Below, piece by piece: positions 1 to 14,728 of a DNA stretch of 64,000 bases. The notes beneath the pieces are model-generated. The model worked only from the letters and a program-made list of their open reading frames with translations, was not told where the DNA came from and ran no database searches. Each line of letters starts with the position of its first letter. Positions within the stretch are counted from its first letter, which is position 1. Origin of the DNA: a bacterium (GTDB lineage: Bacteria; Zhuqueibacterota; QNDG01; DSAB01); contig JAFGDT010000007.1 in the NCBI GenBank assembly GCA_016931965.1, positions 1,063 to 65,062 on the forward strand, read 5' to 3'. The position numbers and the translations under genes are program-made.

Positions 1-116
1 TCCTCTAAATAGACTTCCGGCATTTTTTTAAACGGAATTTTTGCTTTAACAAGACTGCTTTTTGCCCTCTTTATCCATTCCCTCGGATCGTCCGGCGGAA
101 AGCGTTCACTGACCAT
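1..116 (-). CDS. HEPN-domain protein, N-terminal part only (runs off the window edge)
   Basis: Manual translation from ATG at 116: MVSERFPPDDPREWIKRAKSSLVKAK...PEVYLE, a typical HEPN N-terminus; overlaps the stop of the adjacent MNT gene; absent from the ORF track. Confidence 0.75.
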   Translation of the reverse strand, partial: MVSERFPPDDPREWIKRAKSSLVKAKIPFKKMPEVYLE

Positions 117-423
117 AAACCACCTTTCCTTCCCTGAGAGCCGGCTCAATGACCAGAGCAAAAGAATCCTTATACCGTTCAATATCCTCAGGAGTCACAA
201 CCACAACATCTACAGCTTGCCCTACGCCATAAAGATTCATATAAATGGCTTGTGCCAAACACCTTCGATGTGCTCCTGATTTGACGACAAGCAAATCCAA
301 ATCGCTGTTGGGTCCCATTTCTTTAATTCCTGCAGAACCAAAGAGGATGATTTTCTCAGGTTGGGCTACTTCAACAATACGTCGAATAATTTCATCTAAT
401 ATTTTCTGCTTGATGCCTGCCAT
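106..423 (-). CDS. Minimal nucleotidyltransferase (MNT) antitoxin
   Basis: 105 aa; LFGS...DLDLLVV motif; coupled to the downstream HEPN gene. Confidence 0.85.
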   Translation of the reverse strand: MAGIKQKILDEIIRRIVEVAQPEKIILFGSAGIKEMGPNSDLDLLVVKSGAHRRCLAQAIYMNLYGVGQAVDVVVVTPEDIERYKDSFALVIEPALREGKVVYGQ

Positions 424-450
424 TGTTTACATTCCACCACGATATTAAAA

Positions 451-512
451 AGTGCCTAAAATAAATCAAAATATAAAATGTAAATATCAAAACCACAATC
501 CAAAATGCAAAA
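451..512. repeat. AGTGCCTAAA motif plus 50-nt 7-periodic A-rich arm
   Basis: aaatcaaaatataaaatgtaaatatcaaaaccacaatccaaaatgcaaaa (463-512) resembles arms at 4455, 10578 and 13130. Confidence 0.85.
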
Positions 513-600
513 TCATCTCTTCTCTCTAAGTCGTCAAAATGCTCGATGCAAAAATATTTCCAATCTCTTCTCATTCTTTTAAAAACCGACCAACTTCATT
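513..600 (-). pseudogene. 3' remnant of a four-helix-bundle gene
   Basis: Reads EVGRFLKE*EEIGNIFASSILT, then after a +1 shift LREKR*, versus EVDWFLKELEEIGNIFASSILTLKGKR* in 13180-13551; its stop abuts the arm as in the intact copy. Confidence 0.85.
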
Positions 601-659
601 TTATGGATTATCCGAAATCCTTCCCCTCACACCCGGCGGCCCCGGAATATGCTTGAAAT

Positions 660-1010
660 TTAAATCCACTTCACATCCTTTATCAAATTCCGACAGATCT
701 TACCCTCATCGCAAAGTTTTTGCCATTCTGCAGATGTATAGACAAGCAAATCGGCCGGTACGGCCAGGATTGTCGTATCCCATTTACTTGCTCGTCTGAT
801 AAAGGGCCGATCAGATTGGTTAACGATGATAATGACATCTATGTCGCTTCCCACACCCCAGTTCCCTTTGGCATATGATCCAAAGTAACCAATACGCAGT
901 ACATTCTTATTGCTTTTCTTGATCCGCCTGGCCCAATTCTCGAGATCCTTTATCACTGTCTGCGCATCAGGCCATTTGATTACGGACGAACTCAATGATC
1001 TCACGGGCAT
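660..1010 (-). CDS. MNT antitoxin
   Basis: Likely start MPVRSLSSSV at 1010 (track start 1115); FGSYAKGNWGVGSDIDVIII motif. Confidence 0.85.
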   Translation of the reverse strand: MPVRSLSSSVIKWPDAQTVIKDLENWARRIKKSNKNVLRIGYFGSYAKGNWGVGSDIDVIIIVNQSDRPFIRRASKWDTTILAVPADLLVYTSAEWQKLCDEGKICRNLIKDVKWI

Positions 1011-1362
1011 AACGTATCGTCTCCTCGCTCTGCAGAGAACCATAGTGTTCGAAAGGAGCTCCTTCCGGATGGCTGTTGGGATAACGCGGGGGTATGTAAT
1101 AGGTGTCCAGAACACGGGCTTTATCGATCATATCCTCTGGAACGTCTACATTGTCGGGGAGCTCGCTAAAAAGTTTAGAGATAACATGACCCCATGCTTC
1201 CTGCCCCAAATAGAGGTGAAGCGCTTTCACAGCCTTTTCAGCGGCTTGCTGCGCTGCAAAACATGCCCACTCATGATACCCCGCTTGCCTGGATTCTTCT
1301 GCTTGCTGCACGTCCCTTTTTGCTTGACTAAACCAGTCAGCAGAACGATTGGACATTGTCAT
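967..1362 (-). CDS. HEPN-domain protein (COG2250-like)
   Basis: WACFAAQQAAEKAVKAL...WGH...YIPPRYPN signature; overlaps the MNT gene. Confidence 0.9.
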   Translation of the reverse strand: MTMSNRSADWFSQAKRDVQQAEESRQAGYHEWACFAAQQAAEKAVKALHLYLGQEAWGHVISKLFSELPDNVDVPEDMIDKARVLDTYYIPPRYPNSHPEGAPFEHYGSLQSEETIRYAREIIEFVRNQMA

Positions 1363-1530
1363 TTACCTTTCTAAAATATTATGGAATGGTTGGAATTGAT
1401 AAGATAAAATTGTTTTTATATCCAACTTTTTTGATGAATCTAAAATTTCTATCCCAACAATTTTACCTGAATCTGTAAAATCTAAATGAACTCCCTCTGC
1501 CACTTCAACAACGCCATCTGGTTTTTCTTC
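1363..1530 (-). pseudogene. 5'-truncated DUF2283-like (antitoxin-associated) gene
   Basis: Manual translation EEKPDGVVEVAEGVHLDFTDSGKIVGIEILDSSKKLDIKTIL...*; no start; its TAA abuts the HEPN ATG. Confidence 0.7.
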
Positions 1531-1585
1531 CCCTGAGCGTTAAAATACCCGATACGAAAATATTTCCAATCTCTTCCAATATTCC
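1522..1585 (-). pseudogene. Second 3' remnant of a four-helix-bundle gene
   Basis: LEEIGNIFVSGILTLRGRK versus LEEIGNIFASSILTLKGKR. Confidence 0.75.
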
Positions 1586-1597
1586 ACGGAATGAAGA

Positions 1598-1695
1598 TTT
1601 TGACATTTGTCATTTTATCCCATTGGGATTTGGGATTTTACTTTTACCTTTTGCTTTTTGCCTTTTTACTTTTGCCTTTTTACTTTCGCTTTTTC
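1598..1695. repeat. T-rich arm plus TTTTGCC/TTTTAC-type tandem units
   Basis: The first ~41 nt recur with 1 mismatch at 3654-3694. Confidence 0.85.
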
Positions 1696-1757
1696 CCCGA
1701 ACCTTTCCACTCGATCCTTCATTCGAGAATCACTATCCGGATTGTTCATCTTCCTGT

Positions 1758-2375
1758 TCAAAACCGGCTCAACGCCACATCTGTCAGAAACGACCGGATT
1801 TCTTCCCCATCAGGGGACTCTGCCGCCATATCCACTTCTTCAGAATAATCGATATCATCGAAATAGGCCAATTGTTCACGGAACAATTTATCATTAAAGA
1901 CAGTCCCAAACAATTGATGAGCCCTTATTTCAATTTCCCCTAAAGAAAAATGATCCCGCAGCAGAAAATAGAGATCCACATAATCTTTCCATTTGCCCCG
2001 GCCTCCTAACGCTTGGGCTTTCATGGCACCGAGATCCAGCAGGACAGGCATGGAAATCACTCCTTCAAAATCAATTGGTGCAGGGATTTGAAATGGATAG
2101 GCGAAAAAAGTCAGTTTCACACCAAGCAACAGGCAATGCATTTGATCAAATGCCTCATAGAGTACATCCTCAATTTGAAAACCGCTTCTTTTTATTGTAT
2201 TTTGAATCTGCATTCTGTGGATCTCATTGTGGGTAAACAAATCAAAATCAATGGACCGCCGGTGTCCGATGTGCAGGGCGACGGCTGTTCCGCCTGCTAA
2301 ATAATATTGATCTGAAAAGTGGTGAAGAAGCGGCAGGAGCGCTTTTTGATTATCTGTCAGTATTTCAGGATGCAT
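1758..2375 (-). CDS. AbiEii-like nucleotidyltransferase (type IV TA toxin)
   Basis: Likely start MHPEIL at 2375; YYLAGGTAVALHIGHRRSIDFDLF and KWKDYVDLYF motifs. Confidence 0.85.
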   Translation of the reverse strand: MHPEILTDNQKALLPLLHHFSDQYYLAGGTAVALHIGHRRSIDFDLFTHNEIHRMQIQNTIKRSGFQIEDVLYEAFDQMHCLLLGVKLTFFAYPFQIPAPIDFEGVISMPVLLDLGAMKAQALGGRGKWKDYVDLYFLLRDHFSLGEIEIRAHQLFGTVFNDKLFREQLAYFDDIDYSEEVDMAAESPDGEEIRSFLTDVALSRF

Positions 2376-2637
2376 GTCTTTCAAAGTACTGCCGAAAGAA
2401 ATGGACGGTTCTTGGATGATAGTTGACACGCCTTCCGCCTATCTGTCGATTAAAAATTTCAGAAATTCTTTTCATGGATGCAATTTCGAACAATTCACGG
2501 ATATCCGAAATGTGTCCGTATTTCAGGATGGTTTCCACAACCGCACTGAGACTCAGGTTCTCTTTTGCCCCTTCACGGATATCCCAGAACAGATGGCTGT
2601 GCTGACGGATGTAGACTTTTAATGCTTCGGAATCCAT
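2365..2637 (-). CDS. DUF6922-like small partner (putative antitoxin) of the AbiEii protein
   Basis: 90 aa; LFWD...VVETILKYG motif; overlaps the AbiEii start. Confidence 0.7.
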   Translation of the reverse strand: MDSEALKVYIRQHSHLFWDIREGAKENLSLSAVVETILKYGHISDIRELFEIASMKRISEIFNRQIGGRRVNYHPRTVHFFRQYFERHAS

Positions 2638-2765
2638 GACAATAAAAATAAGTTCCTAAATTGCCTGAAGTCATAAAAAATCAAAATGTACCACTCTTGT
2701 CCAAAATAGGAAATAATTGAATTGATTATTTTTTTTAGCTTTTATTCATCTTCCAGGTTACAAGG

Positions 2766-2846
2766 GGATTCCGGCTCAAAACACGACCGGAATGACAGAG
2801 GGAGGGATGTCATTCCCGAAATTTTTAATCGGGAATCCAGGGGCGG
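2766..2846. repeat. REP-like double hairpin, GTCATTCC(C)...GGAATCC family
   Basis: Two head-to-head stem-loops; an inverted homolog lies at 16741-16820. Confidence 0.85.
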
Positions 2847-2970
2847 TGCTTTGATAACCTGATATTTAAATATAAAGAAAAACCAGTGTAACCCGCTTGT
2901 TCTCAATATATCCATTTCCTGTTTTGGACAGCAATGAAAATGTATAAATCAAAATGACAATATTAAAAAA

Positions 2971-2988
2971 TGCCTTAAGTGCCTAAAG
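2971..2988. repeat. TGCCTTAAG-TGCCTAAAG 9-mer tandem, left arm of an inverted repeat around the 4HB gene
   Basis: Complementary tract tttaggcactctaggcact at 3443-3461. Confidence 0.75.
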
Positions 2989-3050
2989 TTATACATTCTC
3001 TCATTGTTTTATACATTTTTAGAATTTTAATAAATTTGAATGAATCACAT

Positions 3051-3437
3051 TCAATGATTTGTTTTGCACGTTTTAAATATTTGAGAAAACAAGGCCAGCA
3101 ATTCGCCCGATTCTTCATATAGCTTTTTCATCTGTTCAACAGGTATCAATTCTGATTCCATAATAAGCTCTATCCAGTATTGAGTCTCAGCTGCTTCTTT
3201 TGTACAAATTGAAATTTTATTCTTAAAATCAGCTTGGCTGACAGATCTGTTGGCCTCACGGTAGTTGGCTCCTATCGATGTACCGGCTTTTATTAACCGA
3301 TAACAAATCACCTTTCCAGCGGCATTTGTTTTTAGTTTGAAGGATAAATTGATTATGTTAATCGCAAACCTTTTTGTTCTTTTCTCTAACTCTATAGCAA
3401 ATTCTTTATTGGTCAATTTTTCTTTTTTACAATTCAT
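3051..3437 (-). CDS. Four-helix-bundle protein (23S rRNA IVP / TIGR02436-like)
   Basis: LEKRTKRFAI...GTSIGANYREA...DFKNKISICTKEAAETQYWIEL signature. Confidence 0.9.
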   Translation of the reverse strand: MNCKKEKLTNKEFAIELEKRTKRFAINIINLSFKLKTNAAGKVICYRLIKAGTSIGANYREANRSVSQADFKNKISICTKEAAETQYWIELIMESELIPVEQMKKLYEESGELLALFSQIFKTCKTNH

Positions 3438-3464
3438 CTCATTTTAGGCACTCTAGGCACTTTT

Positions 3465-3567
3465 ACCCTGTGTAATAACATATTTTCTTGATGAATGAGA
3501 TAATAAACATAACTTTTTATAATTAGAAGTCTTATACACATCGTGAGGATTCACTATTACACAGGGT
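3465..3567. mobile_element. Small MITE-like element with 13-bp perfect terminal inverted repeats
   Basis: accctgtgtaata (3465-3477) / tattacacagggt (3555-3567); nested in a TAGGCACT tract; related to 10368-10433. Confidence 0.55.
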
Positions 3568-3653
3568 TAACTTTAGGCACTCTCAGTCTCGGGCGTAATT
3601 TTGGATAGGGACATTCCTCCCGTATTGTCGGTATTGGGGAATTGAATTAAATC

Positions 3654-3694
3654 TTTTGACATTTGTCATTTTACCCCATTGGGATTTGGGATTT
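3654..3694. repeat. 41-nt direct repeat of 1598-1639
   Basis: ttttgacatttgtcattttaYcccattgggatttgggattt. Confidence 0.9.
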
Positions 3695-3719
3695 GTTTCT
3701 GTACTTGCTATTCTTTATT

Positions 3720-4070
3720 TTAATGTTCGGTTTTTACACGATTTTGAACAAACTGCCTGTACACTGCCGCATCCATCAGGTATGCGGCCATCATCACCTG
3801 TTCAATATTCCCATAAGGATGGTTATTGACGATCAAAGATCCGATCGATTCGCGCAGTCTCAACAGCTCACCCCGCTTGGCCCGCCATTTTGGATCTGCA
3901 ATGATGTAATCCAGAAGAATCAACGCCCGGTAGAGATGATTTTTCGCACTTCCAGGATTCCCCTCCTGCAAACATTTTGCTTTGTTCAAATCACTGACCA
4001 TATGGCCGATCTGGTCATCAGCAGAGAATGATGCATAACGGTCCTTCAAATTTTTATACCAGTTTTTCAT
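3720..4070 (-). CDS. Hypothetical helical protein, partner of the DUF5674-like gene
   Basis: Likely start MKNWYKNL at 4070; overlaps the upstream gene by 17 nt. Confidence 0.65.
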   Translation of the reverse strand: MKNWYKNLKDRYASFSADDQIGHMVSDLNKAKCLQEGNPGSAKNHLYRALILLDYIIADPKWRAKRGELLRLRESIGSLIVNNHPYGNIEQVMMAAYLMDAAVYRQFVQNRVKTEH

Positions 4071-4431
4071 CTGCCCCCAGTAAAAGTGACTCAATGATCC
4101 GTCTGACTTTTTCCTTTGCCTTTTCATCCAGTATTTCCATTGACGGATTATCCTGATGAGGACGAATATTGATCAACGCCGTATATTCGATGCGTTTATC
4201 CGGTTCGTGCCACGGGTAAAAGTTGATTCCCCAGAGCGCCTCCGGCCCTGATCCTTCTTGAAGCAGAAGCAGTTCAGCATCTGCATGGAGATCCCCGCCA
4301 ATACCGGCACATTCCTTTTCAATATCGACAACCACTTTAACCATGTCACCAAACCATGTTTCGCAAAGTGACTTTAACCGAGCTTTCGATATTTTCTGGT
4401 TCATTACCAGAATGCTTTCAGAACCCAACAT
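4054..4431 (-). CDS. DUF5674-like protein
   Basis: DMVKVVVDIE...GGDLHADAE...LWGINFYP...IEYTALINIRP motifs. Confidence 0.75.
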   Translation of the reverse strand: MLGSESILVMNQKISKARLKSLCETWFGDMVKVVVDIEKECAGIGGDLHADAELLLLQEGSGPEALWGINFYPWHEPDKRIEYTALINIRPHQDNPSMEILDEKAKEKVRRIIESLLLGADEKLV

Positions 4432-4454
4432 GAAATACCATTATATTATTCATC

Positions 4455-4660
4455 AAATCAAAAATTAAAATGCAAAAATTAAAATGACAATCCAAAATGC
4501 AAAATTATTTCTCAAAAGATACAAAATCAAAATGCCAAATAAAATCCTGCATTTCCGCTCATCCCTCGTCTCCGCTCGGGATGACATTTTTTCTTTTTGT
4601 CTTTTCCTTTTTGCCTTTTTCCTTTAATCTTGATTCTTGTATCTTCTTTAATATCTTATT
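4455..4660. repeat. Cassette spacer: A-arm, REP-B hairpin, T-rich tract
   Basis: A-arm 4455-4505; tcatccc...gggatga hairpin 4559-4584; 4494-4625 repeats directly at 5210-5341. Confidence 0.9.
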
Positions 4661-4663
4661 TTA

Positions 4664-4888
4664 TTATTTCTTCAAGAAATCATCCAATTCAACTCCTGCT
4701 TCTTTCAATATCGCCCTTAAAGTCCCTTCAGGTAAATCTCCAGGATGATTGGGAATTGTTGTATATCGATTGGTAGAAGCATTATACCAGATCTCATGGC
4801 TACCCGCTGCATGCCGATGAAACTCAAAACCAAATCGTTTAAGTTTTTTCACTATTTCCCGATATTTGAACCCCGCCAATCTGCCCAA
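4664..4888 (-). CDS. hicA: HicA family toxin (mRNA interferase)
   Basis: 74 aa; GF...GSHEIWYN...TTIPNHPGDLPEGTLRAILK signature. Confidence 0.9.
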   Translation of the reverse strand: MGRLAGFKYREIVKKLKRFGFEFHRHAAGSHEIWYNASTNRYTTIPNHPGDLPEGTLRAILKEAGVELDDFLKK

Positions 4889-5125
4889 TTAAACACCAAC
4901 TACCAGTGGATATTCAAATGAATCTTCGGTGACAATCAAGTTTGATATATTCTCTTCTTTGGCCTCTATCAATTTTTTTACAACATCACGTGCAATTTCC
5001 AGTGTTTCTTCAATCGTACGTCCCTGGGCTACCAAACCTTGGATATCCTTGGATGTTGCCAGATAATATCCTTCAGGAAGCTTTTGAATATTGATTTTTA
5101 CGATACGTTCCAAATTGGCCTCCAT
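4889..5125 (-). CDS. hicB: HicB family antitoxin (short form)
   Basis: 78 aa; YLAT...GLVAQGRTIEETLEIARD motif. Confidence 0.85.
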   Translation of the reverse strand: MEANLERIVKINIQKLPEGYYLATSKDIQGLVAQGRTIEETLEIARDVVKKLIEAKEENISNLIVTEDSFEYPLVVGV

Positions 5126-5186
5126 GGAAACCGAACAAAATGTACAAAGTTAAATAAAATTAAAAACCAAAATCATAATTGAAAAA

Positions 5187-5430
5187 AGTGCCTAAAGTCA
5201 TACAAAATCAAAATGCAAAATCATTTCTCAACAAATACAAAATCCAAATGTCAAATAAAATCCTGCATTTCCGCTCATCCCTCGTCTCCGCTCGGCATGA
5301 CATTTTTTCTTTTTGTCTTTTGCCTTTTGCCTTTTTCCTTTCTCTTCACTCTTGCTTCTTGCTTCTTTATCCTTGATTCTTTTTCCTTTTTACTTTTTCC
5401 TTTTGCCTTTTTACTTTTACCTTTATCTTG
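5187..5430. repeat. Cassette spacer, second copy of the ~130-nt direct repeat
   Basis: AGTGCCTAAAG at 5187; 5210-5341 differs from 4494-4625 at fewer than ~10 positions; long pyrimidine tract follows. Confidence 0.9.
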
Positions 5431-5446
5431 ATACTTGCCTCTGTAT

Positions 5447-5782
5447 TCACATCTCTCTACCCGAAATCATCTCACAATACCACTGAGGGCAGGTTGATTG
5501 AAGTTTTTCAAATTCCTGTACCGTGTAAGGGAATACATCAATACCGACTGGGAAACCGGCCGGCAGATAATCGGGGATGCGTTCCCGGAAGGGTTTATCG
5601 GAGTCGCGGAGTATCAGACACAAATCGACATCACTCCCCGGCCGGGGAATCCCTTTTATCCAGGAACCAAACCAGATCATCCTTACAATCTCATGACAAT
5701 GATTCCGAAGATAGCCGATATGGTCTTTCACGGCCTGTTCCACCCGCTTCCGATCAATCGATTTGATGATGACAGAATTCAA
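5447..5782 (-). CDS. MNT antitoxin
   Basis: WFGSWIKGIPRPGSDVDLCLIL motif. Confidence 0.85.
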   Translation of the reverse strand: MNSVIIKSIDRKRVEQAVKDHIGYLRNHCHEIVRMIWFGSWIKGIPRPGSDVDLCLILRDSDKPFRERIPDYLPAGFPVGIDVFPYTVQEFEKLQSTCPQWYCEMISGREM

Positions 5783-6143
5783 GAATATCCTCCGCTATGC
5801 GTATGGCATTCTGAGATTCTTCACGAGTATAAAAATCGGTCGGTGCACCCGAATCAAATCCATTGGGATAGCGGCTGGGAATATAATGTTTATCCAGGAT
5901 CCTGGCCCCCCGAATGATGGAATCGGGAACTTCTGTTACCGATTGCAGATTGCCCACAAGAACGGTCAATGTATGCCCCCACGCCTCCATGCTTCTCTTC
6001 TGAAAAACAGCTTTGATCGCTTTTTCCGCTGCTTGTTGAGCCGCAAAACAGCTCCAATCATAATCGCCGTCCTTGAGCGCATGACGGGCATGATTAAGAT
6101 CGGCCTCCGCCTGCCTGTACCAATCTAAATAGCGGTTCGCCAT
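5754..6143 (-). CDS. HEPN-domain protein (COG2250-like)
   Basis: WSCFAAQQAAEKAIKA...WGH...HYIPSRYPN; paralog of 967-1362. Confidence 0.9.
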   Translation of the reverse strand: MANRYLDWYRQAEADLNHARHALKDGDYDWSCFAAQQAAEKAIKAVFQKRSMEAWGHTLTVLVGNLQSVTEVPDSIIRGARILDKHYIPSRYPNGFDSGAPTDFYTREESQNAIRIAEDILEFCHHQID

Positions 6144-6198
6144 AAAACACTCTTCCGAGAATGAAAAATTTTCTTCAAATCGATGCCCTTGTTGTTGA

Positions 6199-6410
6199 AT
6201 TAAAAATTAAAATGGAAAAACACTTCCTTTTGAATTTTGATCCTTCGCCTGCTCCTTCACTCCGTTCAGGACTTCGGCTCAGGACTGATCTGTCATTTTG
6301 CATTTTGATTTTTAATTCTAAAAATATTATTTATTTTGGATTTGGGATTTACCTTTTACCTTTTGCCTTTTTACTTTTTCCTTCTGCCTTTTATTTTTTC
6401 ACTTTTCTAT
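6199..6410. repeat. Cassette spacer: inverted arms 6199-6214 / 6301-6316 enclosing a REP-like fragment, then a T-rich tract
   Basis: attaaaaattaaaatg versus cattttgatttttaat (1 mismatch). Confidence 0.7.
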
Positions 6411-6487
6411 CCCACAGTACAATAACGATAAAACCTGTACATCAAGTACACGGACTGAGATGCTGAACACATTGAAATTATCCCCCC

Positions 6488-6556
6488 GATAATTTCTTCT
6501 ATTGTAATTAAATCATCTCGTGCTGATTTCAACCACTCAGCTGTTATCTGCTTCAT
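6488..6556 (-). pseudogene. Truncated HEPN gene (about 23 codons of recognisable N-terminus)
   Basis: MKQITAEWLKSARDDLITIEEII overlaps the MNT end; HEPN resemblance then ends. Confidence 0.65.
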
Positions 6557-6881
6557 AGATCAATTTCCCATTTTGCATTATTTCTCGCGAAAACATACTA
6601 TTCAGTTGAATGAATTTCTCATGCATCGGCAGAGTATGTACAATAATATCCATCGGGAAATCTTTCCGTACCGAATCCAACAATCTGGAAAACCGCATTT
6701 TGACATCCATTTTTTCTTTAAAGCTACGGGGGAGAAACCGATCATTCGTCACAATATAAAGGTCAATGTCGCTATCAGCATGACACTTATCGGAAGTATA
6801 CGATCCAAATAGAATGACTTTTTGGGGATTCTCCTTTTTAATCTTTTCAATTATTTTTTTCTGAATATGTTCTGATAGCAT
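6537..6881 (-). CDS. MNT antitoxin (partner truncated)
   Basis: ILFGSY...DSDIDLYIV motif. Confidence 0.85.
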   Translation of the reverse strand: MLSEHIQKKIIEKIKKENPQKVILFGSYTSDKCHADSDIDLYIVTNDRFLPRSFKEKMDVKMRFSRLLDSVRKDFPMDIIVHTLPMHEKFIQLNSMFSREIMQNGKLIYEADNS

Positions 6882-6900
6882 AAATAGAACTTTAATAGAT

Positions 6901-7035
6901 AAATCAAAAATTAAAATGCGAAAATATTATCCAACAAATCCAAAAATAATTTTAACATACCATTTTTGACACTTGGATTTTGGGCTTTATTTTTCATTTG
7001 GATTTTGACATTTGACATTTTTGCCTTTTTACTTG
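6901..7035. repeat. Cassette spacer: A-arm then T-arm
   Basis: 6901-6918 is identical to 13130-13147; T-rich heptamer tract at 6961-7035. Confidence 0.8.
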
Positions 7036-7039
7036 AATT

Positions 7040-7355
7040 AAATCCTCGCCTCAAAGCCGAATGCTTCTCTCGCCCGGCGCACATCGAGCATCCGCCTCGG
7101 CGGCATCTTCCACATAGATGTATTCTCGTGTCACCTCACCCGTTCCCCAGACAACAATTTAATCTTTATTTTCACTAACCGCATACACACATTTCTTGAT
7201 CAGCACCTGAATCACGTGTTGGGAACAGGCGTATATTTGGGATAGGCACAAATCGTCCCGATGCAGACAAACTTCTGGATTCCGAACTGTCGCGCCTGTT
7301 CGATGAGCTCAATGCCCATAATCGCATTGTTATAGAAAAATGTACCGCCATTCTC
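7040..7355 (-). pseudogene. fcl: Internally deleted remnant of a second GDP-L-fucose synthase gene
   Basis: Three collinear blocks matching 8267-9208 (FFYNNAIMG...[10 protein letters not shown] / [26 protein letters not shown] / PRRMLDV...FGF); in-frame stop. Confidence 0.9.
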
Positions 7356-7442
7356 GTGGCTGATTCCAATACTCCACTTTCTCTGTAAAATAAACCCCGA
7401 TACTTCATTATTACCCCCCCTGCGTATGCTCCGCTCCTTATA

Positions 7443-7895
7443 TCATTTCCTTCTTTCTCTTTGTTGCATCCTCCTTAAAAATTCGCCGATTTGCTCGCCA
7501 AAGACCTTGCTGACTCGGCCAAATTTACCCACCAATCGATCAAGCCGTTCTCCTTTCAATTCAAACCCATAAATATTCCTGAATACATGTCGAAATGAAA
7601 GATAATCATCAAGTTCAGCAGCCAGCTCCTCTGAAACTACCTGCGGTCGGATGCCTTTTATCTCAATAGTCATACGATATAAGAGTTCTTTGTTCCAGGT
7701 TTCGCTTTGCACAAATCCACCGTTAATATCTGCGGTTATTCTTCTAAAAATCCTCTCGCAGCAATTGTAAAAGTCATGAAGAATTGAACCTTGCGCTCTG
7801 CGATTGTTTACTTTGTCCCTCTTCTTTATCACTTCTTCAAGTTCTTCTCTTAATCTGGCTATGTTCTCCAGCTCTTTATGGACCTCAGCAACCAT
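7443..7895 (-). CDS. HepT-like HEPN ribonuclease toxin
   Basis: LHDFYNCCERIF...FRHVFRNIYGFEL motif. Confidence 0.8.
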   Translation of the reverse strand: MVAEVHKELENIARLREELEEVIKKRDKVNNRRAQGSILHDFYNCCERIFRRITADINGGFVQSETWNKELLYRMTIEIKGIRPQVVSEELAAELDDYLSFRHVFRNIYGFELKGERLDRLVGKFGRVSKVFGEQIGEFLRRMQQRERRK

Positions 7896-7911
7896 TTATT
7901 CCCAGAAAATC

Positions 7912-8262
7912 TCATTCTTTCTCATAGATAATCCACCCCTCCCTTATTATCTTTTCTTTAGATGAACCCTCTAACCCTTCAAAGGGCTTGAGATCAACAG
8001 AAAAGTTGGAATTTTTTAGCAAACAAGCATAAGCTTTGTAGAACATGGCATCTTCTAAACCTTCGATTGCCAAATCAATATCTGACCATGCCGATAATGA
8101 CTTCCCATTGGTAACGGAACCGAAAAGATAGACCCTTTTGAATTCAAACCCTTCGGCATTCAAAAGCTGAACCAGCCACTGAGCTTCGTTTTTTAAATCT
8201 GTTCTTAACATATGGCATACAACTTTTCGTCGTTCTTTGACTTTTTCTAAATAAGTTTTCAT
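7912..8262 (-). CDS. MNT antitoxin
   Basis: Likely start MKTYLEK at 8262, 4 nt after the fcl stop; LFGSV...SDIDLAIEGL. Confidence 0.85.
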   Translation of the reverse strand: MKTYLEKVKERRKVVCHMLRTDLKNEAQWLVQLLNAEGFEFKRVYLFGSVTNGKSLSAWSDIDLAIEGLEDAMFYKAYACLLKNSNFSVDLKPFEGLEGSSKEKIIREGWIIYEKE

Positions 8263-8266
8263 CTGA

Positions 8267-9244
<978 letters not shown>

Positions 9245-10285
9245 CTAAAATCCCCGTTTCTTGACCTTTTCACAGTCCGCCTCCACCATGATCTTCACCA
9301 GCTCGGCAAACTTGACCTGGGGATCCCATCCTAACTTCTGTTTCGCTTTTGAACAATCCCCGACTAAAAAATCGACCTCCGTGGGCCTGAAATATTTCGT
9401 ATCGACAGCCACACGCACCTGACCGCTCTTCTTCTCAATGCCCCTTTCGCCGTTTCCTTTTCCCTCCCACTCCAATTCCATGCCGATTTCTTTGAAAGCC
9501 AGATCGACAAACTCCCTCACCGAATAAGACTCACCCGTGGCAATGACAAAATCTTCCGGTTCGTCAAGCTGCAGCATTTTCCACATCGCATCGACATACT
9601 CGGGCGCATAGCCCCAGTCCCGCCTGGCATCCAAGTTGCCGACAACGAGTTTTTCCTGGATGTTGTGTCGGATTCGGGCCACAGCTCTGGTGATCTTCCG
9701 GCTGATGAATGTCTCTCCTCGCCGTGGCGATTCATGGTTAAAGAGAATCCCGTTGCAGGCAAACAGATTGTAGGCCTCGCGGTAATTCACAATGATCCAG
9801 TAGGCGTACAGTTTGGCGATTCCGTAGGGTGACCGCGGATAAAAGGGTGTCTTTTCCGTCTGCGGAATTTCCCGCGCCTTGCCGTAAAGCTCGCTGGTCG
9901 AAGCCTGATAGAACTTCGTCCGGATCCCCGTCTCCTTGATCGCATCCAAAAACCGCAGTGTGCCGATGGCGTCGACCTCCGCCGTATATTCAGGCACTTC
10001 AAAAGAGACCTTCACATGGCTCTGAGCACCCAGGTTGTATATTTCATCAGGTTTCACTTTTTCCAGCAGCCGGTTGAGATTGCTGGAATCGGTCAGATCA
10101 CCATGATATAAAAACATCCTTTTATCATGAATGTCGGGATCATTGAAAAGGTGATCGATTCGGCCGGTATTGAACGAACTGCTCCTCCGGATAATACCGT
10201 GCACTTCGTAGCCCTTCTCCAGGAGAAGCTCAGTAAGATAAGAGCCGTCCTGGCCTGTGATCCCTGTGATGAGAGCCTTTTTCAA
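9245..10285 (-). CDS. gmd: GDP-mannose 4,6-dehydratase
   Basis: [41 protein letters not shown]; TTG start. Confidence 0.97.
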
Positions 10286-10304
10286 TTGAATATCCTTATT
10301 AAAC

Positions 10305-10470
10305 AGTGCCTAAAGTTATTCAAAATGTAAAAATCAAAACCACAATGAAAAATCCAAAATCCAAATTTACCCTGTTAGATAACTAACTTCTGACATCGAA
10401 TACAAATCCAAATAATTTCTATCTAACAGGGTAGATACCAATACTATCAAATAAAAAAAAGTGCCCAAAG
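10305..10470. repeat. AGTGCCTAAAG plus partial A-arm, MITE-like insert and AGTGCCCAAAG
   Basis: Same motifs as 451-512 and 5187. Confidence 0.8.
10368..10433. mobile_element. MITE-like element with 14-bp perfect terminal inverted repeats
   Basis: taccctgttagata / tatctaacagggta, 38-nt interior. Confidence 0.55.
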
Positions 10471-10577
10471 TAAGACAAAGAAAAAAGATAAAAGATAAAA
10501 CAGATTTTTCATTCATAAATCTGAACTGTATGATACATCTTTTCTGAAATGAATTTTCTTCATGATACTATTAAATT

Positions 10578-10683
10578 AAATCAAAAATCAAAATGTAAAA
10601 ATCAAAATGACAATGTAAAATGCAAATATATTTATTTTTGATTTTTGATATGTCATTTTTCATTTTGATATTTGATTTTTAAT
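10578..10683. repeat. Empty arm pair (hairpin with no cargo gene)
   Basis: Left arm 45/50 identical to 13130-13179; 10578-10595 pairs with 10661-10678 (1 mismatch). Confidence 0.85.
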
Positions 10684-10693
10684 ATACTCTTTA

Positions 10694-11293
10694 TCACGAT
10701 GTCTGAATCAGCATCTCCCCCTCAACCCCATACTCCTTCTGACACCGCATACAGATGGCCGTCTTCTCGACCACTTCCAGTTTCTCTCCGCATTCACAGA
10801 CCCAACCCTGCTGTTTAGCAGGGACGCCGACCATCAGTCCATAGTCGGGCACGTCCTTGGTCACCACAGCTCCTGCGCCGATAAAGGCATGTCTGCCGAT
10901 GGTATGACCGCAGACAATGGTGGCATTGGCGCCAATGGAGGCTCCTTCACGAACGAGTGTTTTTTTGTAAAATTCTTTTCCCCGCTGTGGGTATTTGCAC
11001 CGCGGATCGAGGATGTTGGTAAAGACCATCGAAGGACCGCAGAAGACATAATCTTCAAGCTCGACGCCTTCGTAGACCGAAACATTGTTCTGGATCTTGA
11101 CATGATTGCCGATCCTGACGTTGTTCCCCACATTCACATTCTGCCCCACAGAACAGTTTTTCCCGATCATCGAACCGCTCTGAATATGCGAAAAATGCCA
11201 GATTTTCGTGCCCTCCCCGATCTCCACATTCTCATCCACATAACTGCTCTCGTGCACAAAGTATTTCTTTTTTTCAGCCATTGTATGATCCAC
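10694..11293 (-). CDS. WbpD/WlbB-like sugar N-acetyltransferase (hexapeptide repeat)
   Basis: IGEGTKIWHFSHI, KIQNNVSVYEGV, VFCGPSMVFTN, GASIGANATI. Confidence 0.88.
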   Translation of the reverse strand: MDHTMAEKKKYFVHESSYVDENVEIGEGTKIWHFSHIQSGSMIGKNCSVGQNVNVGNNVRIGNHVKIQNNVSVYEGVELEDYVFCGPSMVFTNILDPRCKYPQRGKEFYKKTLVREGASIGANATIVCGHTIGRHAFIGAGAVVTKDVPDYGLMVGVPAKQQGWVCECGEKLEVVEKTAICMRCQKEYGVEGEMLIQTS

Positions 11294-11314
11294 TTTTACT
11301 GAAATAAACGAACA

Positions 11315-11557
11315 TCATGTTTTGCCGGATTGATGCGAATGCATAGCTGCCCTTAATCTCCCCTGTGTCTGAATCAGTGCCTCCAGATGCTCCTGATGCC
11401 ATTTTTGAATCATATCGGGATGCATGGATTGACCGAATTCGTATAATTCGGCAAATTGCTCTAAATGTTCTTGCACTGAAATCTGTTTATTGTACCTGAT
11501 TTCCCAATCATTGAAACGGCGATATTTCTCCAAAAGAAGTGTGTATCTATTTTTCAT
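11315..11557 (-). CDS. Hypothetical 80-aa protein coupled to the nucleotidyltransferase
   Basis: Overlaps the stop of 11547-12107; no recognisable motif. Confidence 0.55.
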   Translation of the reverse strand: MKNRYTLLLEKYRRFNDWEIRYNKQISVQEHLEQFAELYEFGQSMHPDMIQKWHQEHLEALIQTQGRLRAAMHSHQSGKT

Positions 11558-12107
11558 GTTTCATCTGTTCCAGTTTTTCAATAATCATTGCATTGTTCAG
11601 GAACTCTGAGAGCTCCCTGCAGTGTTTCATCACGTGGTCCCAATCCAAATTGTCCGCATGATTTTCAACAACCGTCCGAATATCGATCCAGTCCTTTTCC
11701 CTTTTGGAAATGGCTTTTTGAATAATAAAATCTTCCGGTGTACATACACTGGCCTCAATGCCAAACAGAGACGTTTTTCGGCTTCGTTTAACCGCTTCTT
11801 TCTCAAACGGCAGTTCGGCAACTACAAGATCAATCCGGCAACCAGCCACTTTTATCGGCAATACATTGGTTTCTTTGATAAACTGTTCAGGCTTCTCAGA
11901 GAGGAATTCTGAAACAGGACCAAGTATCTTTATCAGCTTTGCATAACCTTTCTGACCACCTGGCAGCAGGATCTTGATATCAATATCCACCGTAAATCTT
12001 GGACATCCATAAACTGACAGAGCTATACCCCCAAAAATCATGTATTCAATCTGATTTTTTTCAAAAACGGATATTAATATCCCAAGTGATTTTTTGAAAG
12101 GTTTCAC
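11547..12107 (-). CDS. Nucleotidyltransferase (DUF6036/AbiEii-like fold)
   Basis: MIFGGIALSVYGCPRFTVDIDI and EDFIIQKAISKREKDWIDI motifs; GTG start abuts the upstream stop. Confidence 0.75.
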   Translation of the reverse strand: MKPFKKSLGILISVFEKNQIEYMIFGGIALSVYGCPRFTVDIDIKILLPGGQKGYAKLIKILGPVSEFLSEKPEQFIKETNVLPIKVAGCRIDLVVAELPFEKEAVKRSRKTSLFGIEASVCTPEDFIIQKAISKREKDWIDIRTVVENHADNLDWDHVMKHCRELSEFLNNAMIIEKLEQMKHEK

Positions 12108-13088: not shown

Positions 13089-13129
13089 CCTGAAATCCTT
13101 TCGCTTTCTATTTTGGATTTGCCATACTT

Positions 13130-13179
13130 AAATCAAAAATTAAAATGCAAATATCAAAATGACAATGTAAAATGTAAAA
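13130..13179. repeat. A-arm directly after the 4HB stop codon
   Basis: 13130-13151 pairs with 13545-13566 at 21/22 positions. Confidence 0.9.
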
Positions 13180-13551
13180 TTACCTCTTTCCTTTAAGTGT
13201 TAAAATACTGGAAGCGAAAATATTTCCAATCTCTTCTAATTCTTTTAAAAACCAATCTACTTCTTTTTGTTGAACACGCTTACTATCTCTAAGCAAAGAA
13301 ATCCACAGTTTACTCTCATTTGTCGATTTTAAAGATATATTAAAATAGTTCGTGAAATCCTTTTTGCTACTGGCAGCTTGACCTTCTATATAATTTCCCA
13401 ATATACTTGTGCTGCTACGTAATAGCTGATCTCCAAGCCTTTTGGAAACATTGTCTTTAGGTAAATGATCCAAAAATTCTATCAACTTAAGAACAAAACG
13501 ATAAAGACGACCTTTAAACTCCTTTTTAAATTTTGATCTGCCATTTTGCAT
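13180..13551 (-). CDS. Four-helix-bundle protein (23S rRNA IVP / TIGR02436-like)
   Basis: QLLRSSTSILGNYIEG..ASSKKDF...SLKSTNESKLWISLL signature. Confidence 0.92.
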   Translation of the reverse strand: MQNGRSKFKKEFKGRLYRFVLKLIEFLDHLPKDNVSKRLGDQLLRSSTSILGNYIEGQAASSKKDFTNYFNISLKSTNESKLWISLLRDSKRVQQKEVDWFLKELEEIGNIFASSILTLKGKR

Positions 13552-13570
13552 TTTAATATTTGATTTTTAC
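13543..13570. repeat. T-arm containing the 4HB start codon
   Basis: attttgcattttaatatttgatttttac; the ATG (13551-13549) lies inside the repeat. Confidence 0.85.
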
Positions 13571-13591
13571 ATTATTACTCACAAAACAACT

Positions 13592-14728
13592 CTATTGATA
13601 AAATTCCATGATTGCCTCGATGACATAATCTTGCATCTCTCTTGTTAATTCGGGATAAATCGGTAGCGCCAATGTATGGGAAGCGGCATGCTCGCTGTTC
13701 GGAAAATCGCCGGTTTGATATCCCAAATATTGAAAACAGGCCTGCTGATGAAAGGGTACGGGGTAGTAAATTTCATGACCGACCTGTTTCTTTTTGAGAA
13801 AAGCGCCGAGGTCATCCCTTCGGTCCGGAACGGAAATCACATACTGATTGTAGATGTGATACTCCCTCTCGTAGGCAATCACCGGTTTTTGAATGCCTTC
13901 AACATTGAGATGAGCATCATAGTAAGCAGCATTCTCCTGACGCCCCTTATGCCATGTTTCAAGATAGGTGAACTTGACAAGCAGAATAGCCGCCTGTATG
14001 GGATCCAGCCGAAAATTGCCGCCGATGAGTGAATGATAATATTTGGGAGAGGCCCCGTGATTCCTTAACTTGATCAACTTGTAGGCCAGACCTTCATCAT
14101 TGGTAACAACCATACCCCCGTCACCCATCGCACCCAGATTCTTGCTCGGGAAAAAGGAGAAACATCCCATTGCCCCCATGCTGCCTGCTTTCCTGACATC
14201 GGTTGATGAGGGATATCGGGCGCCGATGGCCTGGGCGGCATCCTCGATAACAGGAATGTCGAATTGGCTTGCCATTTCAAGGATTGGATCCATATCCGCA
14301 CATTGCCCGTAGAGATGCACGGGGATCATTGATTTGACTTTCTTCGCCTTTTTGGGATTGTCATAAAACCAATTCTTGAGTGCCTGGGGATCCATGTTGT
14401 ACGTATCCGGCTCGATATCGATGAAAACCGGCACAGCACGGAGACGGGCGATCACACCCGCTGTGGCAAAAAAGGAATAAGGTGTGGTGATGACCAGATC
14501 ATCCGGCTGGATGTCCAATGCCATCAATGAAACGAGCAGAGCATCCGTTCCTGAAGAGACACCGATACCGAAAGCAGCACTGCAGTATTTCGCCAGAGTC
14601 TTCTCCAATTCGACCACTTTGGGTCCCATGATATACCGTGTGGATTCAATCACTTCATCGATTGCTTTTTTCACTTCATCCCGAATCGGCTCCAGTTGCG
14701 CTTTCAGATCAAGTAAAACCACTTCCAT
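13592..14728 (-). CDS. DegT/DnrJ/EryC1/StrS aminotransferase, WbpE-like
   Basis: SSGTDAL, VHLYGQ, EDAAQAIGA, FSFFPSKNLGAMGDGG, GGNFRLD. Confidence 0.9.
   Translation of the reverse strand: MEVVLLDLKAQLEPIRDEVKKAIDEVIESTRYIMGPKVVELEKTLAKYCSAAFGIGVSSGTDALLVSLMALDIQPDDLVITTPYSFFATAGVIARLRAVPVFIDIEPDTYNMDPQALKNWFYDNPKKAKKVKSMIPVHLYGQCADMDPILEMASQFDIPVIEDAAQAIGARYPSSTDVRKAGSMGAMGCFSFFPSKNLGAMGDGGMVVTNDEGLAYKLIKLRNHGASPKYYHSLIGGNFRLDPIQAAILLVKFTYLETWHKGRQENAAYYDAHLNVEGIQKPVIAYEREYHIYNQYVISVPDRRDDLGAFLKKKQVGHEIYYPVPFHQQACFQYLGYQTGDFPNSEHAASHTLALPIYPELTREMQDYVIEAIMEFYQ

What the first reader, a model, noticed from the sequence alone, without database searches (positions are those of the whole stretch)
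463..1695. Two 4HB tail fossils bracket a HEPN-MNT pair and a DUF2283-like fragment
Seen: 513-600 keeps only the last ~29 codons of a 4HB gene (one nonsense codon, one +1 shift) with its arm attached. 1522-1585 is a second tail. It merges through gaaga into a 5'-truncated DUF2283-like frame whose stop abuts the HEPN ATG. All lie between one A-arm and one T-arm. Inference: 4HB elements were repeatedly invaded or replaced by TA cargo, with the 3' tail and arm retained.
Basis: partly seen in the sequence, partly recalled or inferred. Interest (0 to 1): 0.62.

Follow-up and report, generated by a model that had tools for sequence, protein, structure and literature searches.

The report
Four-helix-bundle gene stubs beside a toxin-antitoxin pair
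Two short dead remnants of a small four-helix-bundle gene really do flank an intact HEPN-MNT toxin-antitoxin pair, but they are recombination scars in a patchwork of gene fragments, not clear evidence that such genes are specifically invaded by toxin-antitoxin cargo.

Summary
All genes are on the minus strand.

- **Tail 1 (513-607):** the last ~30 codons of a PF05635 four-helix-bundle (4HB) gene, with a TGA at 571-573 and one extra base near 532. It carries the family's canonical 3' arm (460-512).
- **Tail 2 (1523-1580):** the last 19 codons only, with no arm.
- Both tails are closest to the intact paralog at 13180-13551 (82-83% nt).

New points:

- The DUF2283 piece is internal (codons ~19-63 of 73).
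- A 57-nt fragment of a GME-like epimerase lies between MNT and tail 1.
- The ~0.9-kb block DUF2283-HEPN-MNT-epimerase fragment recurs at 92% nt in six metagenome contigs. There it sits in an epimerase-anchored TA array with no 4HB.
- The two "arms" belong to different repeat families.

Tests of the wider claim:

- Isolated tails occur only here among 167 genomes of the phylum. Relatives have a head-only and an internally deleted copy, so there is no general 3' bias.
- Neighbours of this 4HB subfamily in 80 loci from other phyla are mostly housekeeping genes; no TA family ranks among the commonest.

Best reading: microhomology-mediated deletion or illegitimate joints in an array where 4HB cassettes alternate with TA cassettes. 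Moderate interest.

The parts
460..512 (-).
   Evidence: It aligns with the arm after the intact gene at 13125-13182. It matches cross-phylum tail/arm profile positions 64-116. About 10 copies occur in the genome, several without any 4HB.
513..607 (-). 4HB tail 1: the last ~30 codons of a PF05635 gene. It is a pseudogene piece with TGA at 571-573 and an extra base at ~532.
607..663 (-). Fragment (KHIPGPPGVRGRISDN) of the 3' part of a GME-like NAD-dependent epimerase. It starts 5 nt after the MNT stop.
   Evidence: It is 86% nt identical to the epimerase gene of G011:C277. It is orthologous to copy c2 in L178 and lies within the 92% block. No intact copy of this epimerase is in the genome assembly.
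660..1010 (-). MNT nucleotidyltransferase (116 aa), apparently intact, with the motif GS-x10-DID
   Evidence: PF01909 and PF18765. The called product is P0121, in a cluster with 88% relatives.
967..1356 (-). HEPN protein (129 aa from the ATG at 1356; 131 aa from 1362), apparently intact, with R-x4-H in RYPNSH
   Evidence: PF05168 at 110.8 bits. It is 95% aa identical to the HEPN of L178-L182.
1363..1393 (-). Conserved leader of the HEPN cassette (CCATAATATTTTAGAAAGGTAA). It supplies the last codons and the stop of the DUF2283-like frame.
   Evidence: The same sequence lies before HEPN in L178, where a small inverted-repeat insert splits it.
1394..1527 (-). Internal piece of a DUF2283 (putative antitoxin) gene, codons ~19-63 of 73
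   Evidence: PF10049 at 30.6 bits, profile positions 17-47 of 49. It is 84% nt and 75-79% aa identical to the full DUF2283 of L177-L182.
1523..1580 (-). 4HB tail 2: the last 19 codons, with no stop and no 3' arm. It joins the DUF2283 piece in GAAGA (1526-1530).
1598..1695 (-). A-rich spacer of 7-nt repeats (GYAAAAG) ending in a 41-nt repeat (1598-1638 matches 3654-3694 at 98%). It is not a canonical 4HB 5' arm.
   Evidence: The 4HB head/5'-arm profile gives no hit here. The spacer family is widespread in relatives.
13125..13610 (-). Reference copy: the intact 4HB gene (13180-13551) with its inverted arms, inside the sugar operon. It is the closest relative of both tails.
   Evidence: PF05635 at 69 bits.

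Best explanation
Window 460-1695 is a scarred stretch of a co-oriented cassette array. It holds one intact HEPN-MNT pair surrounded by five gene pieces and a spacer. In coding order these are the heptad spacer, 4HB tail 2, an internal DUF2283 piece, the HEPN leader, HEPN, MNT, an epimerase 3' fragment, 4HB tail 1 and the canonical 4HB 3' arm.

The inferred ancestral state is an array in which small hairpin-armed 4HB cassettes alternated with TA cassettes. That state is still visible at 3051-3437 in this window and in relative G003:C439. The block DUF2283 / HEPN-MNT / epimerase-fossil is older than its present context. It occurs at 92% nt identity in related organisms whose array has no 4HB.

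In this lineage, short-microhomology illegitimate events, most simply deletions, fused the block on both sides to neighbouring 4HB copies:
- One event ran from the epimerase fossil into codon ~95 of a downstream 4HB, leaving tail 1 plus arm.
- One ran from the last codons of an upstream 4HB, across its arm and a DUF4258 toxin gene, into codon ~19 of DUF2283.
- One removed the 5' ~100 codons of that upstream 4HB, leaving tail 2.

The tails have no function of their own and decay neutrally.

Why 3' ends survive is inference. A deletion that reaches the start of the next cassette would destroy its promoter or first gene, often the antitoxin, and be selected against. A deletion that eats a toxin's 3' end and the 5' part of a dispensable 4HB is tolerated.

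Shown: the homologies, the junction positions, the existence of the block without 4HB, and the lack of a general 3' bias or TA linkage. Inferred: the order and direction of events and the selective filter.
For: - **Fragments are real and paralogous to the intact copy.**
- **Block found elsewhere without 4HB.** Window 1375->607 is 91.8% identical over 769 nt to L178. That identity includes the boundary where the epimerase copy starts right after the MNT stop. None of L177-L182 has a 4HB gene, tail or arm.
- **Junctions.** The tail 2 / DUF2283 junction lies in GGAAGA microhomology. The break points fall at non-equivalent codons, ~104 versus ~95.
- **A plain deletion scar 1 kb away.** HEPN#2 is cut at profile position 88 of 117 and fused to a 4HB that starts at profile position 31 of 106.
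- **Interleaved 4HB and cassette arrays exist intact.** Examples are window 3051-3437 between two pairs and G003:C439, which runs epimerase-4HB-ORF-4HB-pair-4HB.
- **Fossils of unrelated genes occupy the same kind of position.** There are three epimerase 3' copies in L178. In this window the order is fcl, then MNT/HepT, then an fcl fossil.
- **Other decay states of 4HB.** Relatives have head-only and internally deleted copies and frameshifted pseudogenes.
Against: - No genome with the undeleted ancestral arrangement of this exact site was found. All flanking proteins (the AbiEii partner, MNT#2 and both intact 4HB) are singletons at 90% identity among 15 billion proteins. The direction of events, deletion versus insertion, is therefore not shown.
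- Three to four independent deletions within 1.2 kb is not parsimonious.
- All three 4HB fragments of this contig keep the 3' end. Pure random deletion does not predict that. The selective filter proposed is untested and n = 3.
- The tails are slightly closer to each other (34/39 nt) than to the intact copy, which also fits a duplication.
Confidence: 0.55

Rival explanations
1. One resident 4HB cassette was invaded. A ~0.9-kb DNA fragment, cut at random inside DUF2283 and inside the epimerase fossil, came from an array like that of L178. It was inserted by illegitimate or homology-facilitated recombination into the 3' part of the 4HB gene and duplicated ~20 codons of it. Tail 2 would be the end of the upstream copy and tail 1 plus arm the displaced original end. 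The upstream copy later lost its 5' part.
For: - The block carries truncated genes at both ends and exists elsewhere without 4HB.
- The two tails overlap in gene coordinates and are 87% alike.
- The topology 'gene, then TA cassette, then fossil of the same gene' recurs for the epimerase in L178 (three times) and for fcl at 7095-9208.
- The epimerase that gave the 57-nt fragment is absent from this genome assembly, as expected for imported DNA.
- The block has 88-95% relatives, while its flanking genes have none at 90%.
Against: - The sequence 5' of tail 2 is not a 4HB head or canonical 5' arm. An extra deletion is still required.
- The tails differ at 5 of 39 positions.
- No intermediate or empty site was found.
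- The assembly is 94% complete, so absence of the epimerase is not proof.
Confidence: 0.27
2. The arms are recombination sites of a dedicated, integron-like cassette exchange system, run by a host recombinase or by the 4HB protein itself. This system swaps cargo between arms, and the 4HB tails are footprints of imprecise exchange.
For: - Arm copies stand at several cassette junctions and also as gene-less hairpins.
- The 4HB gene travels with its arms across many phyla at 70-82% aa identity.
- All cassettes are co-oriented.
Against: - The junctions lie inside ORFs at different codons, with microhomology, and not at the arms.
- The two flanking repeats belong to different families.
- In the close relatives the same TA cassettes are delimited by epimerase fossils, with no arms at all.
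- No TA family is among the commonest neighbours of the 4HB subfamily in other genomes.
- No known RNA or att-like family matches the arms.
- No recombinase was seen in the array.
Confidence: 0.08
3. The 'tails' are chance similarity in AT-rich, low-complexity spacer DNA and are not gene remnants.
For: The region is AT-rich and repetitive. Tail 2 is only ~55 nt long.
Against: - The genome-wide E-values are significant with three methods.
- A profile built from other phyla gives 1.8e-16 for tail 1 and 2.8e-6 for tail 2.
- The translated frames read EEIGNIFASSILT and EEIGNIFVSGILTL, against EEIGNIFASSILTL in the intact gene.
Confidence: 0.02

Closest known systems
Intervening sequences (IVS) of 23S rRNA that carry an S23p / PF05635 ORF (Coxiella burnetii, Leptospira; PMC4990558)
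   Same: - The same protein family.
- The ORF is boxed by terminal inverted repeats that can form a long stem.
- The distribution is sporadic and suggests horizontal transfer.
- The ORF decays while the repeats persist (S23p is 'undergoing reductive evolution' in Coxiella). Here tails, a head-only copy and gene-less arm pairs show the same.
   Different: - Here the cassettes lie between protein-coding genes of an operon or TA array, not in rRNA helix 25 or 45.
- RNase III processing is untested.
- The fragments in this finding are fused to other genes, not merely degenerate in place.
HEPN-MNT (HepT/MntA-type) and DUF4258-DUF2283 toxin-antitoxin pairs
   Same: - HEPN with R-x4-H and MNT with GS...DxD, in overlapping genes.
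- The DUF2283 piece matches the antitoxin-like partner of DUF4258 in the relatives.
   Different: - Only the HEPN-MNT pair is intact.
- The DUF2283 gene is an internal stub and its DUF4258 partner is gone.
- No activity has been tested.
Integron cassette arrays and integrase-less attC clusters (CALIN)
   Same: A dense, co-oriented array of small, mostly promoterless cassettes that is rich in TA modules and separated by imperfect inverted repeats.
   Different: - Junctions fall inside genes, not at a conserved core.
- The spacers belong to several unrelated repeat families, or are gene fossils in the relatives.
- No integrase gene was seen among the array genes annotated here.
- The arms match no curated RNA or att model.
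Gene remnants in variable polysaccharide (O-antigen or capsule) loci, and homology-facilitated illegitimate recombination (own knowledge: de Vries and Wackernagel 2002)
   Same: - Truncated copies of sugar genes (epimerase, fcl) and of accessory genes lie at the joints of imported segments.
- The joints show short microhomology.
   Different: - Here the imported units are single TA pairs with boundaries within ~10 nt of their start and stop codons.
- A hairpin-armed 4HB cassette is one of the scarred partners.

Membership tests
PF05635 23S_rRNA_IVP / four-helix-bundle protein (the two tails) | Significant sequence similarity to family members | tested here: met
   - tblastn with the intact paralog gives E 2.9e-4 and 0.005 genome-wide.
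- A 35-aa C-terminal query gives E 6.6e-6 and 8.2e-4.
- The cross-phylum DNA profile gives 1.8e-16 and 2.8e-6.
PF05635 23S_rRNA_IVP / four-helix-bundle protein (the two tails) | Complete open reading frame covering the four helices (~106 profile positions) | tested here: not met
   Only ~30 and 19 terminal codons remain. Tail 1 has a TGA and a 1-nt insertion. These are pseudogene fragments, not members that encode a protein.
Hairpin-armed 4HB cassette (as at 13125-13610) | Gene enclosed by a 5' arm and a 3' arm that are mutually complementary | tested here: not met
   Tail 1 keeps the canonical 3' arm. Tail 2 has no 3' arm. The head/5'-arm profile does not hit the stretch 5' of tail 2, which belongs to another repeat family. 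Loose A/U complementarity exists (z -2.9).
rRNA intervening sequence (IVS) | Insertion in helix 25 or 45 of 23S rRNA and excision by RNase III | tested here: not met
   The location is between protein-coding genes. There is no rRNA or other Rfam match in window 1-14000. RNase III cleavage cannot be tested with these tools.
PF10049 DUF2283 | Match above the curated cut-off over the whole domain | tested here: inconclusive
   The score of 30.6 bits exceeds the cut-off of 23, but only profile positions 17-47 of 49 match. The piece corresponds to codons ~19-63 of the 73-codon gene of relatives. It is a truncated member.
HEPN-MNT toxin-antitoxin pair | HEPN domain with R-x4-6-H, adjacent overlapping MNT with GS...DxD | tested here: met
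   PF05168 at 110.8 bits and PF01909 at 44-45 bits. RYPNSH and GSYAKGNWGVGSDID are read directly from the translations. The genes overlap at 967-1010. Toxicity and neutralisation are not testable here.
Integron / CALIN cassette array | Cassette boundaries at attC sites with conserved cores, and an IntI integrase | tested here: not met
   Boundaries fall inside ORFs at non-equivalent codons, or at gene fossils. The spacers belong to different families. No formal attC model or IntI search was run, so this row rests on the junction positions only.

The most novel reading that the evidence does not exclude
TA pairs in these sediment bacteria may move as bare two-gene cassettes by a so far undescribed, integrase-free route. 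The route would drop them into the 3' part of a resident gene and rebuild that gene, leaving the displaced 3' end behind the cassette. The 4HB tails, the three epimerase 3' copies in the relatives and the fcl fossil would all be footprints of this one process. The widely shared, highly conserved 4HB cassettes would serve as portable landing pads.
Probability: 0.15. Interest if true: 0.75.

Novelty: new member of a known kind. Interest (0 to 1): 0.38.

Why it matters
How chromosomal toxin-antitoxin pairs spread without their own mobility genes is an open question. This locus and its relatives give a rare readable record.

- The same HEPN-MNT pair is seen in two different contexts, with boundaries within ~10 nt of its start and stop codons.
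- Every joint is marked by a datable gene fossil: 4HB, epimerase, DUF2283 or fcl.

The locus also adds decay states (tail-only, head-only, internally deleted, gene-less arms) to the little-studied PF05635 hairpin cassettes. These cassettes are shared at 70-82% protein identity across many phyla and resemble rRNA intervening sequences.

By itself, though, the finding is a set of pseudogene scars. Its value is as evidence for how the array turns over.

Tried and rejected
1. **Syntenic ancestral site.** I searched 60 relatives with the DNA of 430-1760. I also looked up exact-protein clusters of all flanking genes. No genome shares the flanks, so no empty or undeleted site could be shown.
2. **G011:C290 as an ortholog of the tail-2 site.** It has an AbiEii-like gene followed by an internally deleted 4HB. 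The AbiEii is only 48% identical over 29 aa, so the loci are not syntenic.
3. **General 3' bias.** I ran C-terminal and N-terminal 35-aa queries over 167 genomes. I also ran profile scans of 101 further loci totalling 355 kb. There are too few fragments, and they include head-only forms.
4. **General 4HB-TA linkage.** I made Pfam censuses of 149 neighbours of 4HB genes and of 80 HEPN-MNT loci. No linkage was found outside this family's arrays.
5. **Promoter or terminator role for the arms.** The sigma-70 and terminator scans show no excess over shuffles. The scan may not fit this organism's promoters.
6. **Known RNA families in the arms.** None was found.
7. **Population variants in public runs.** Logan contigs of four sediment runs confirm the window in one run. 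They led to the relatives' array but show no alternative joint at the tails.
8. **Naming the organism.** The closest homologs of a long protein are labelled only 'bacterium'. The taxon stays undetermined.
9. **The 5' flank of tail 2 as a vestigial 4HB start (ATGACAAATGTCAAAATC).** The resemblance by eye is not supported by the head profile.
Full report
**Setting.** Every gene from window position 1 to about 37,500 lies on the minus strand, so I describe the region in coding order, from high to low coordinates. The window is C105:1063-65062 of a 3.5-Mb, 140-contig genome from a sediment metagenome. The organism could not be named; the nearest homologs of a long protein are labelled only 'bacterium'.

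**Anatomy of 430-1760.**
- After an AbiEii gene that ends at 1758 (PF08843) comes an A-rich spacer of 7-nt repeats (1695->1598). Its last 41 nt recur at 3654-3694 at 98%.
- Next is 4HB tail 2 (1580->1523).
- It is followed by a DUF2283 piece (1527->1394) and a short conserved leader (1393->1363).
- HEPN follows (1356->967; PF05168, 110.8 bits), then MNT (1010->660; PF01909).
- Next is a 57-nt epimerase fragment (663->607).
- Last come 4HB tail 1 (607->513) and a T-rich arm (512->460).
- The next cassette, MNT#2-HEPN#2, starts at 423.

**Are the tails real?** Yes.
- The genome has an intact PF05635 gene at 13180-13551 whose product ends ...KEVDWFLKELEEIGNIFASSILTLKGKR.
- Tail 1 reads NEVGRFLKE*EEIGNIFASSILTT and tail 2 reads ILEEIGNIFVSGILTLRG.
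- Tail 1 plus its arm aligns to the end of the intact gene plus its arm at 120/146 nt, with one gap. The TTA>TGA change is at 571-573 and the extra base is near 532.
- Tail 2 aligns at 44/53 nt.
- Genome-wide significance is as follows:

| Method | Tail 1 | Tail 2 |
|---|---|---|
| tblastn with the intact paralog | E 2.9e-4 | E 0.005 |
| Single-sequence nhmmer | 5.3e-16 | 4e-4 |
| DNA profile from 65 loci of other genomes | 1.8e-16 | 2.8e-6 |

- That profile shows tail 1 as ORF end plus arm (positions 6-116). It shows tail 2 as exactly the last 19 codons, without stop or arm (positions 4-60).
- Both tails are closer to this genome's intact copy (82-83%) and to each other (34/39) than to any of about 90 copies from other genomes (<=80%). 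They are therefore old paralogs within this lineage.

**The DUF2283 piece.**
- Pfam confirms it at 30.6 bits against a cut-off of 23, but only profile positions 17-47 of 49 match.
- The full gene of close relatives reads MKVFYDNEVDALYIRLGNEKPDGVVEIAEG...SYQLDLQKQILAAS. Homology here starts at EKPDGVV (codon 19) and ends after LSYQ.
- The 5' joint to tail 2 lies in GGAAGA (1526-1530), which is shared by the 4HB end (AGGAAAGAGG) and DUF2283 (GCAATGAAAAG).
- The last ~10 codons and the TAA at 1363-1365 belong to a leader (CCATAATATTTWAGAAAGGTAAATRACAATG). The relatives also have this leader before HEPN.
- In the relatives HEPN starts at the ATG that corresponds to 1356.

- The 57 nt after the MNT stop translate to KHIPGPPGVRGRISDN. 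They match, at 86%, the gene of a GME-like NAD-dependent epimerase that lies just upstream of the orthologous HEPN-MNT pair in relative G011.
- No intact copy of this epimerase exists in this assembly.

**The block elsewhere.**
- The MNT protein belongs to a 90% cluster with members on six metagenome contigs, L177-L182.
- Window 1375->607 is 91.8% identical over 769 nt to L178. The identity includes the point where the epimerase copy begins right after the MNT stop.
- The array of L178 runs: intact epimerase, spacer and leader, HEPN-MNT, epimerase 3' copy, DUF4258-DUF2283, epimerase 3' copy, a second DUF4258-like/DUF2283 pair, epimerase 3' copy, and a small ORF plus PIN.
- None of the six contigs has a 4HB gene, tail or arm.
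- So the block DUF2283 / HEPN-MNT / epimerase fossil predates its union with 4HB sequence. Here the epimerase copy is cut after GGATAAT, where tail 1 begins.

**The arms.**
- The 3' arm after tail 1 is the canonical arm of this 4HB subfamily. The intact gene is enclosed by it and by its reverse complement upstream. The same is true in other phyla.
- About ten arm copies exist in this genome. Some form gene-less hairpins, for example window ~10,570-10,690 and C75:3808-3940.
- The head/5'-arm profile does not recognise the stretch 5' of tail 2. That stretch belongs to the heptad-spacer family, which is also found at 5304-5446 and 6333-6406 and is abundant in relatives.
- 'One A-arm and one T-arm' is therefore true as base composition. 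The two can pair loosely (-31 kcal/mol, z -2.9), but they are not the two arms of one element.

**Testing the generalisation.**
- *3' bias.* Among 167 genomes of the phylum, a C-terminal 35-aa query finds isolated tails only in this window. An N-terminal query finds one isolated head, G011:C480, where 31 codons sit between both arms. G011:C290 has an internal deletion with both arms. One locus from another phylum has a 22-codon head fragment right after an intact gene. In this contig a third fragment also keeps the 3' end: C105:635-868 holds 4HB profile positions 31-104, fused to HEPN#2 cut at profile position 88 of 117. That makes three of three locally, but there is no general bias.
- *Linkage to TA.* The subfamily is 70-82% identical in protein across Planctomycetota, Ignavibacteria, Patescibacteria, Chloroflexota-labelled and other genomes. 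Its neighbours there are co-oriented (74 of 77 upstream, 63 of 72 downstream). The commonest neighbour families are housekeeping ones: epimerases (9), LeuC/LeuD (6), TsaD (6), tRNA synthetases and others. No TA family ranks among the 25 commonest in either list.
- *From the TA side.* Of 80 loci with this HEPN-MNT pair, 3 have any 4HB within 3 kb and none has a tail.
- *Within this bacterial family.* Arrays do interleave 4HB genes with small cassettes downstream of an epimerase (G003:C439). Six of the seven 4HB copies or fragments in this genome lie on this contig.

**Other fossils.**
- Self-comparison shows an fcl-like epimerase (8267-9208), followed by an MNT/HepT pair (7912-8298 and 7443-7895), followed by pieces of a second fcl copy (7095-7340).
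- Together with the three epimerase copies in L178, this gives a recurrent order: gene, then TA cassette, then fossil of the same gene.
- 4HB is thus one of several genes that leave remnants between cassettes.

**Interpretation.**
- The joints lie inside ORFs at non-equivalent codons and show microhomology. A plain deletion scar lies 1 kb away. Intact interleaved arrays exist.
- I therefore favour erosion, by illegitimate deletion, of an array in which 4HB cassettes alternated with TA cassettes (confidence 0.55).
- The main rival is a single 4HB cassette split by an imported 0.9-kb fragment, with duplication of its 3' end (0.27). It explains the overlap of the two tails and the recurrent gene-cassette-fossil order. 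It still needs an extra deletion, and tail 2 lacks a 4HB head on its 5' side.
- A dedicated arm-specific exchange system is unlikely (0.08). Chance similarity is excluded.
- The survival of 3' ends may reflect selection against deletions that reach the start of the next cassette. This is inference only.

**Known relatives of the phenomenon.**
- PF05635 ORFs boxed by inverted repeats are known from 23S rRNA intervening sequences. In those, the stem is cut by RNase III and the ORF is decaying in Coxiella (PMC4990558).
- Full-text searches found no description of such cassettes in protein-coding operons, or of their fragments next to TA pairs.
- Gene remnants at recombination joints of polysaccharide loci, and homology-facilitated illegitimate recombination, are established concepts. 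I cite these from my own knowledge.

**Verdict.**
- The feature itself is a set of pseudogene scars and is ordinary in kind.
- It is useful as a readable record of how an integrase-free TA array turns over.

Noticed in passing
window 2690-2935: A ~246-nt repeat with at least 17 copies at 84-96% identity across the genome. It contains small GC-rich hairpins of the type GTCATTCCCGAAA...GGGAATCC and looks like a MITE or structured repeat.
   Followed up: partly
L178:2253-2345 and 3214-3307; L002 (G011:C277) ~1000-1090: A ~93-nt insert bounded by the inverted repeat GTGGGATAAT...TTATCCCACC. It sits at the same codon of the GME-like epimerase in two 3' fossil copies of L178 and in the G011 epimerase gene. 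G011's gene has a second insert of this kind (GGGGGTGAGAA...TTCTCACCCCC). The gene copies were therefore duplicated after the insertion.
   Followed up: partly
L178:1345-1475: A ~130-nt element bounded by the perfect inverted repeat CTTCTGAAAAATGATT / AATCATTTTTCAGAAG splits the conserved HEPN leader in the relatives. It is absent from this window.
   Followed up: no
L001:635-1244 (contig C105, upstream of the window start): HEPN#2 (Pfam profile positions 2-88 of 117) is cut short and fused to a 4HB gene that lacks its first ~38 codons but keeps its 3' end and arm. A further 4HB gene, 87% identical to the one at 3051-3437, runs off the contig start at C105:1-138.
   Followed up: partly
window 7095-9208: An intact fcl-like epimerase is followed by an MNT/HepT pair and then by two collinear pieces of a second fcl copy (83-87% nt). 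This is the same order, gene then TA cassette then fossil, as in the relatives' epimerase array.
   Followed up: partly
L017-L096: The 4HB subfamily of 13180-13551 is 70-82% identical in protein across genomes labelled Planctomycetota, Ignavibacteria, Patescibacteria, Dehalococcoidia, Gammaproteobacteria, WOR-3 and others. It is almost always co-oriented with housekeeping neighbours, for example between LeuC and LeuD, and its 3' arm is conserved at the DNA level.
   Followed up: partly
L012 (G011:C480) 600-760; L011 (G011:C290) 990-1310; L051:4385-4450: Other decay states of the 4HB cassette. The first is both arms around only the first 31 codons. The second is both arms around a gene with codons ~18-62 deleted. 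The third is a 22-codon head fragment 16 nt after an intact copy.
   Followed up: partly
window 1636-1695, 5304-5446, 6333-6406: A-rich spacers built of 7-nt units (GYAAAAG on the coding strand). They match dozens of places in related genomes at 80-90% identity. Their function is unknown and they match no Rfam family.
   Followed up: no
L014 (G003:C439) 197-3561: A relative of the same family has a frameshifted epimerase 3' part followed by three 4HB genes. These are interleaved with one unknown ORF and one unknown gene pair within 3.5 kb.
   Followed up: partly
window 622-596 and L178:1311-1340: The joint '...TCGGAYAAT | CCATAA...' links the end of an epimerase fragment to the start of the HEPN leader. 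It appears after MNT in this window and before HEPN in the relatives. This would fit a former tandem or circular form of the HEPN-MNT unit, but the match is only 10-15 nt and is ambiguous with the 4HB alignment.
   Followed up: partly
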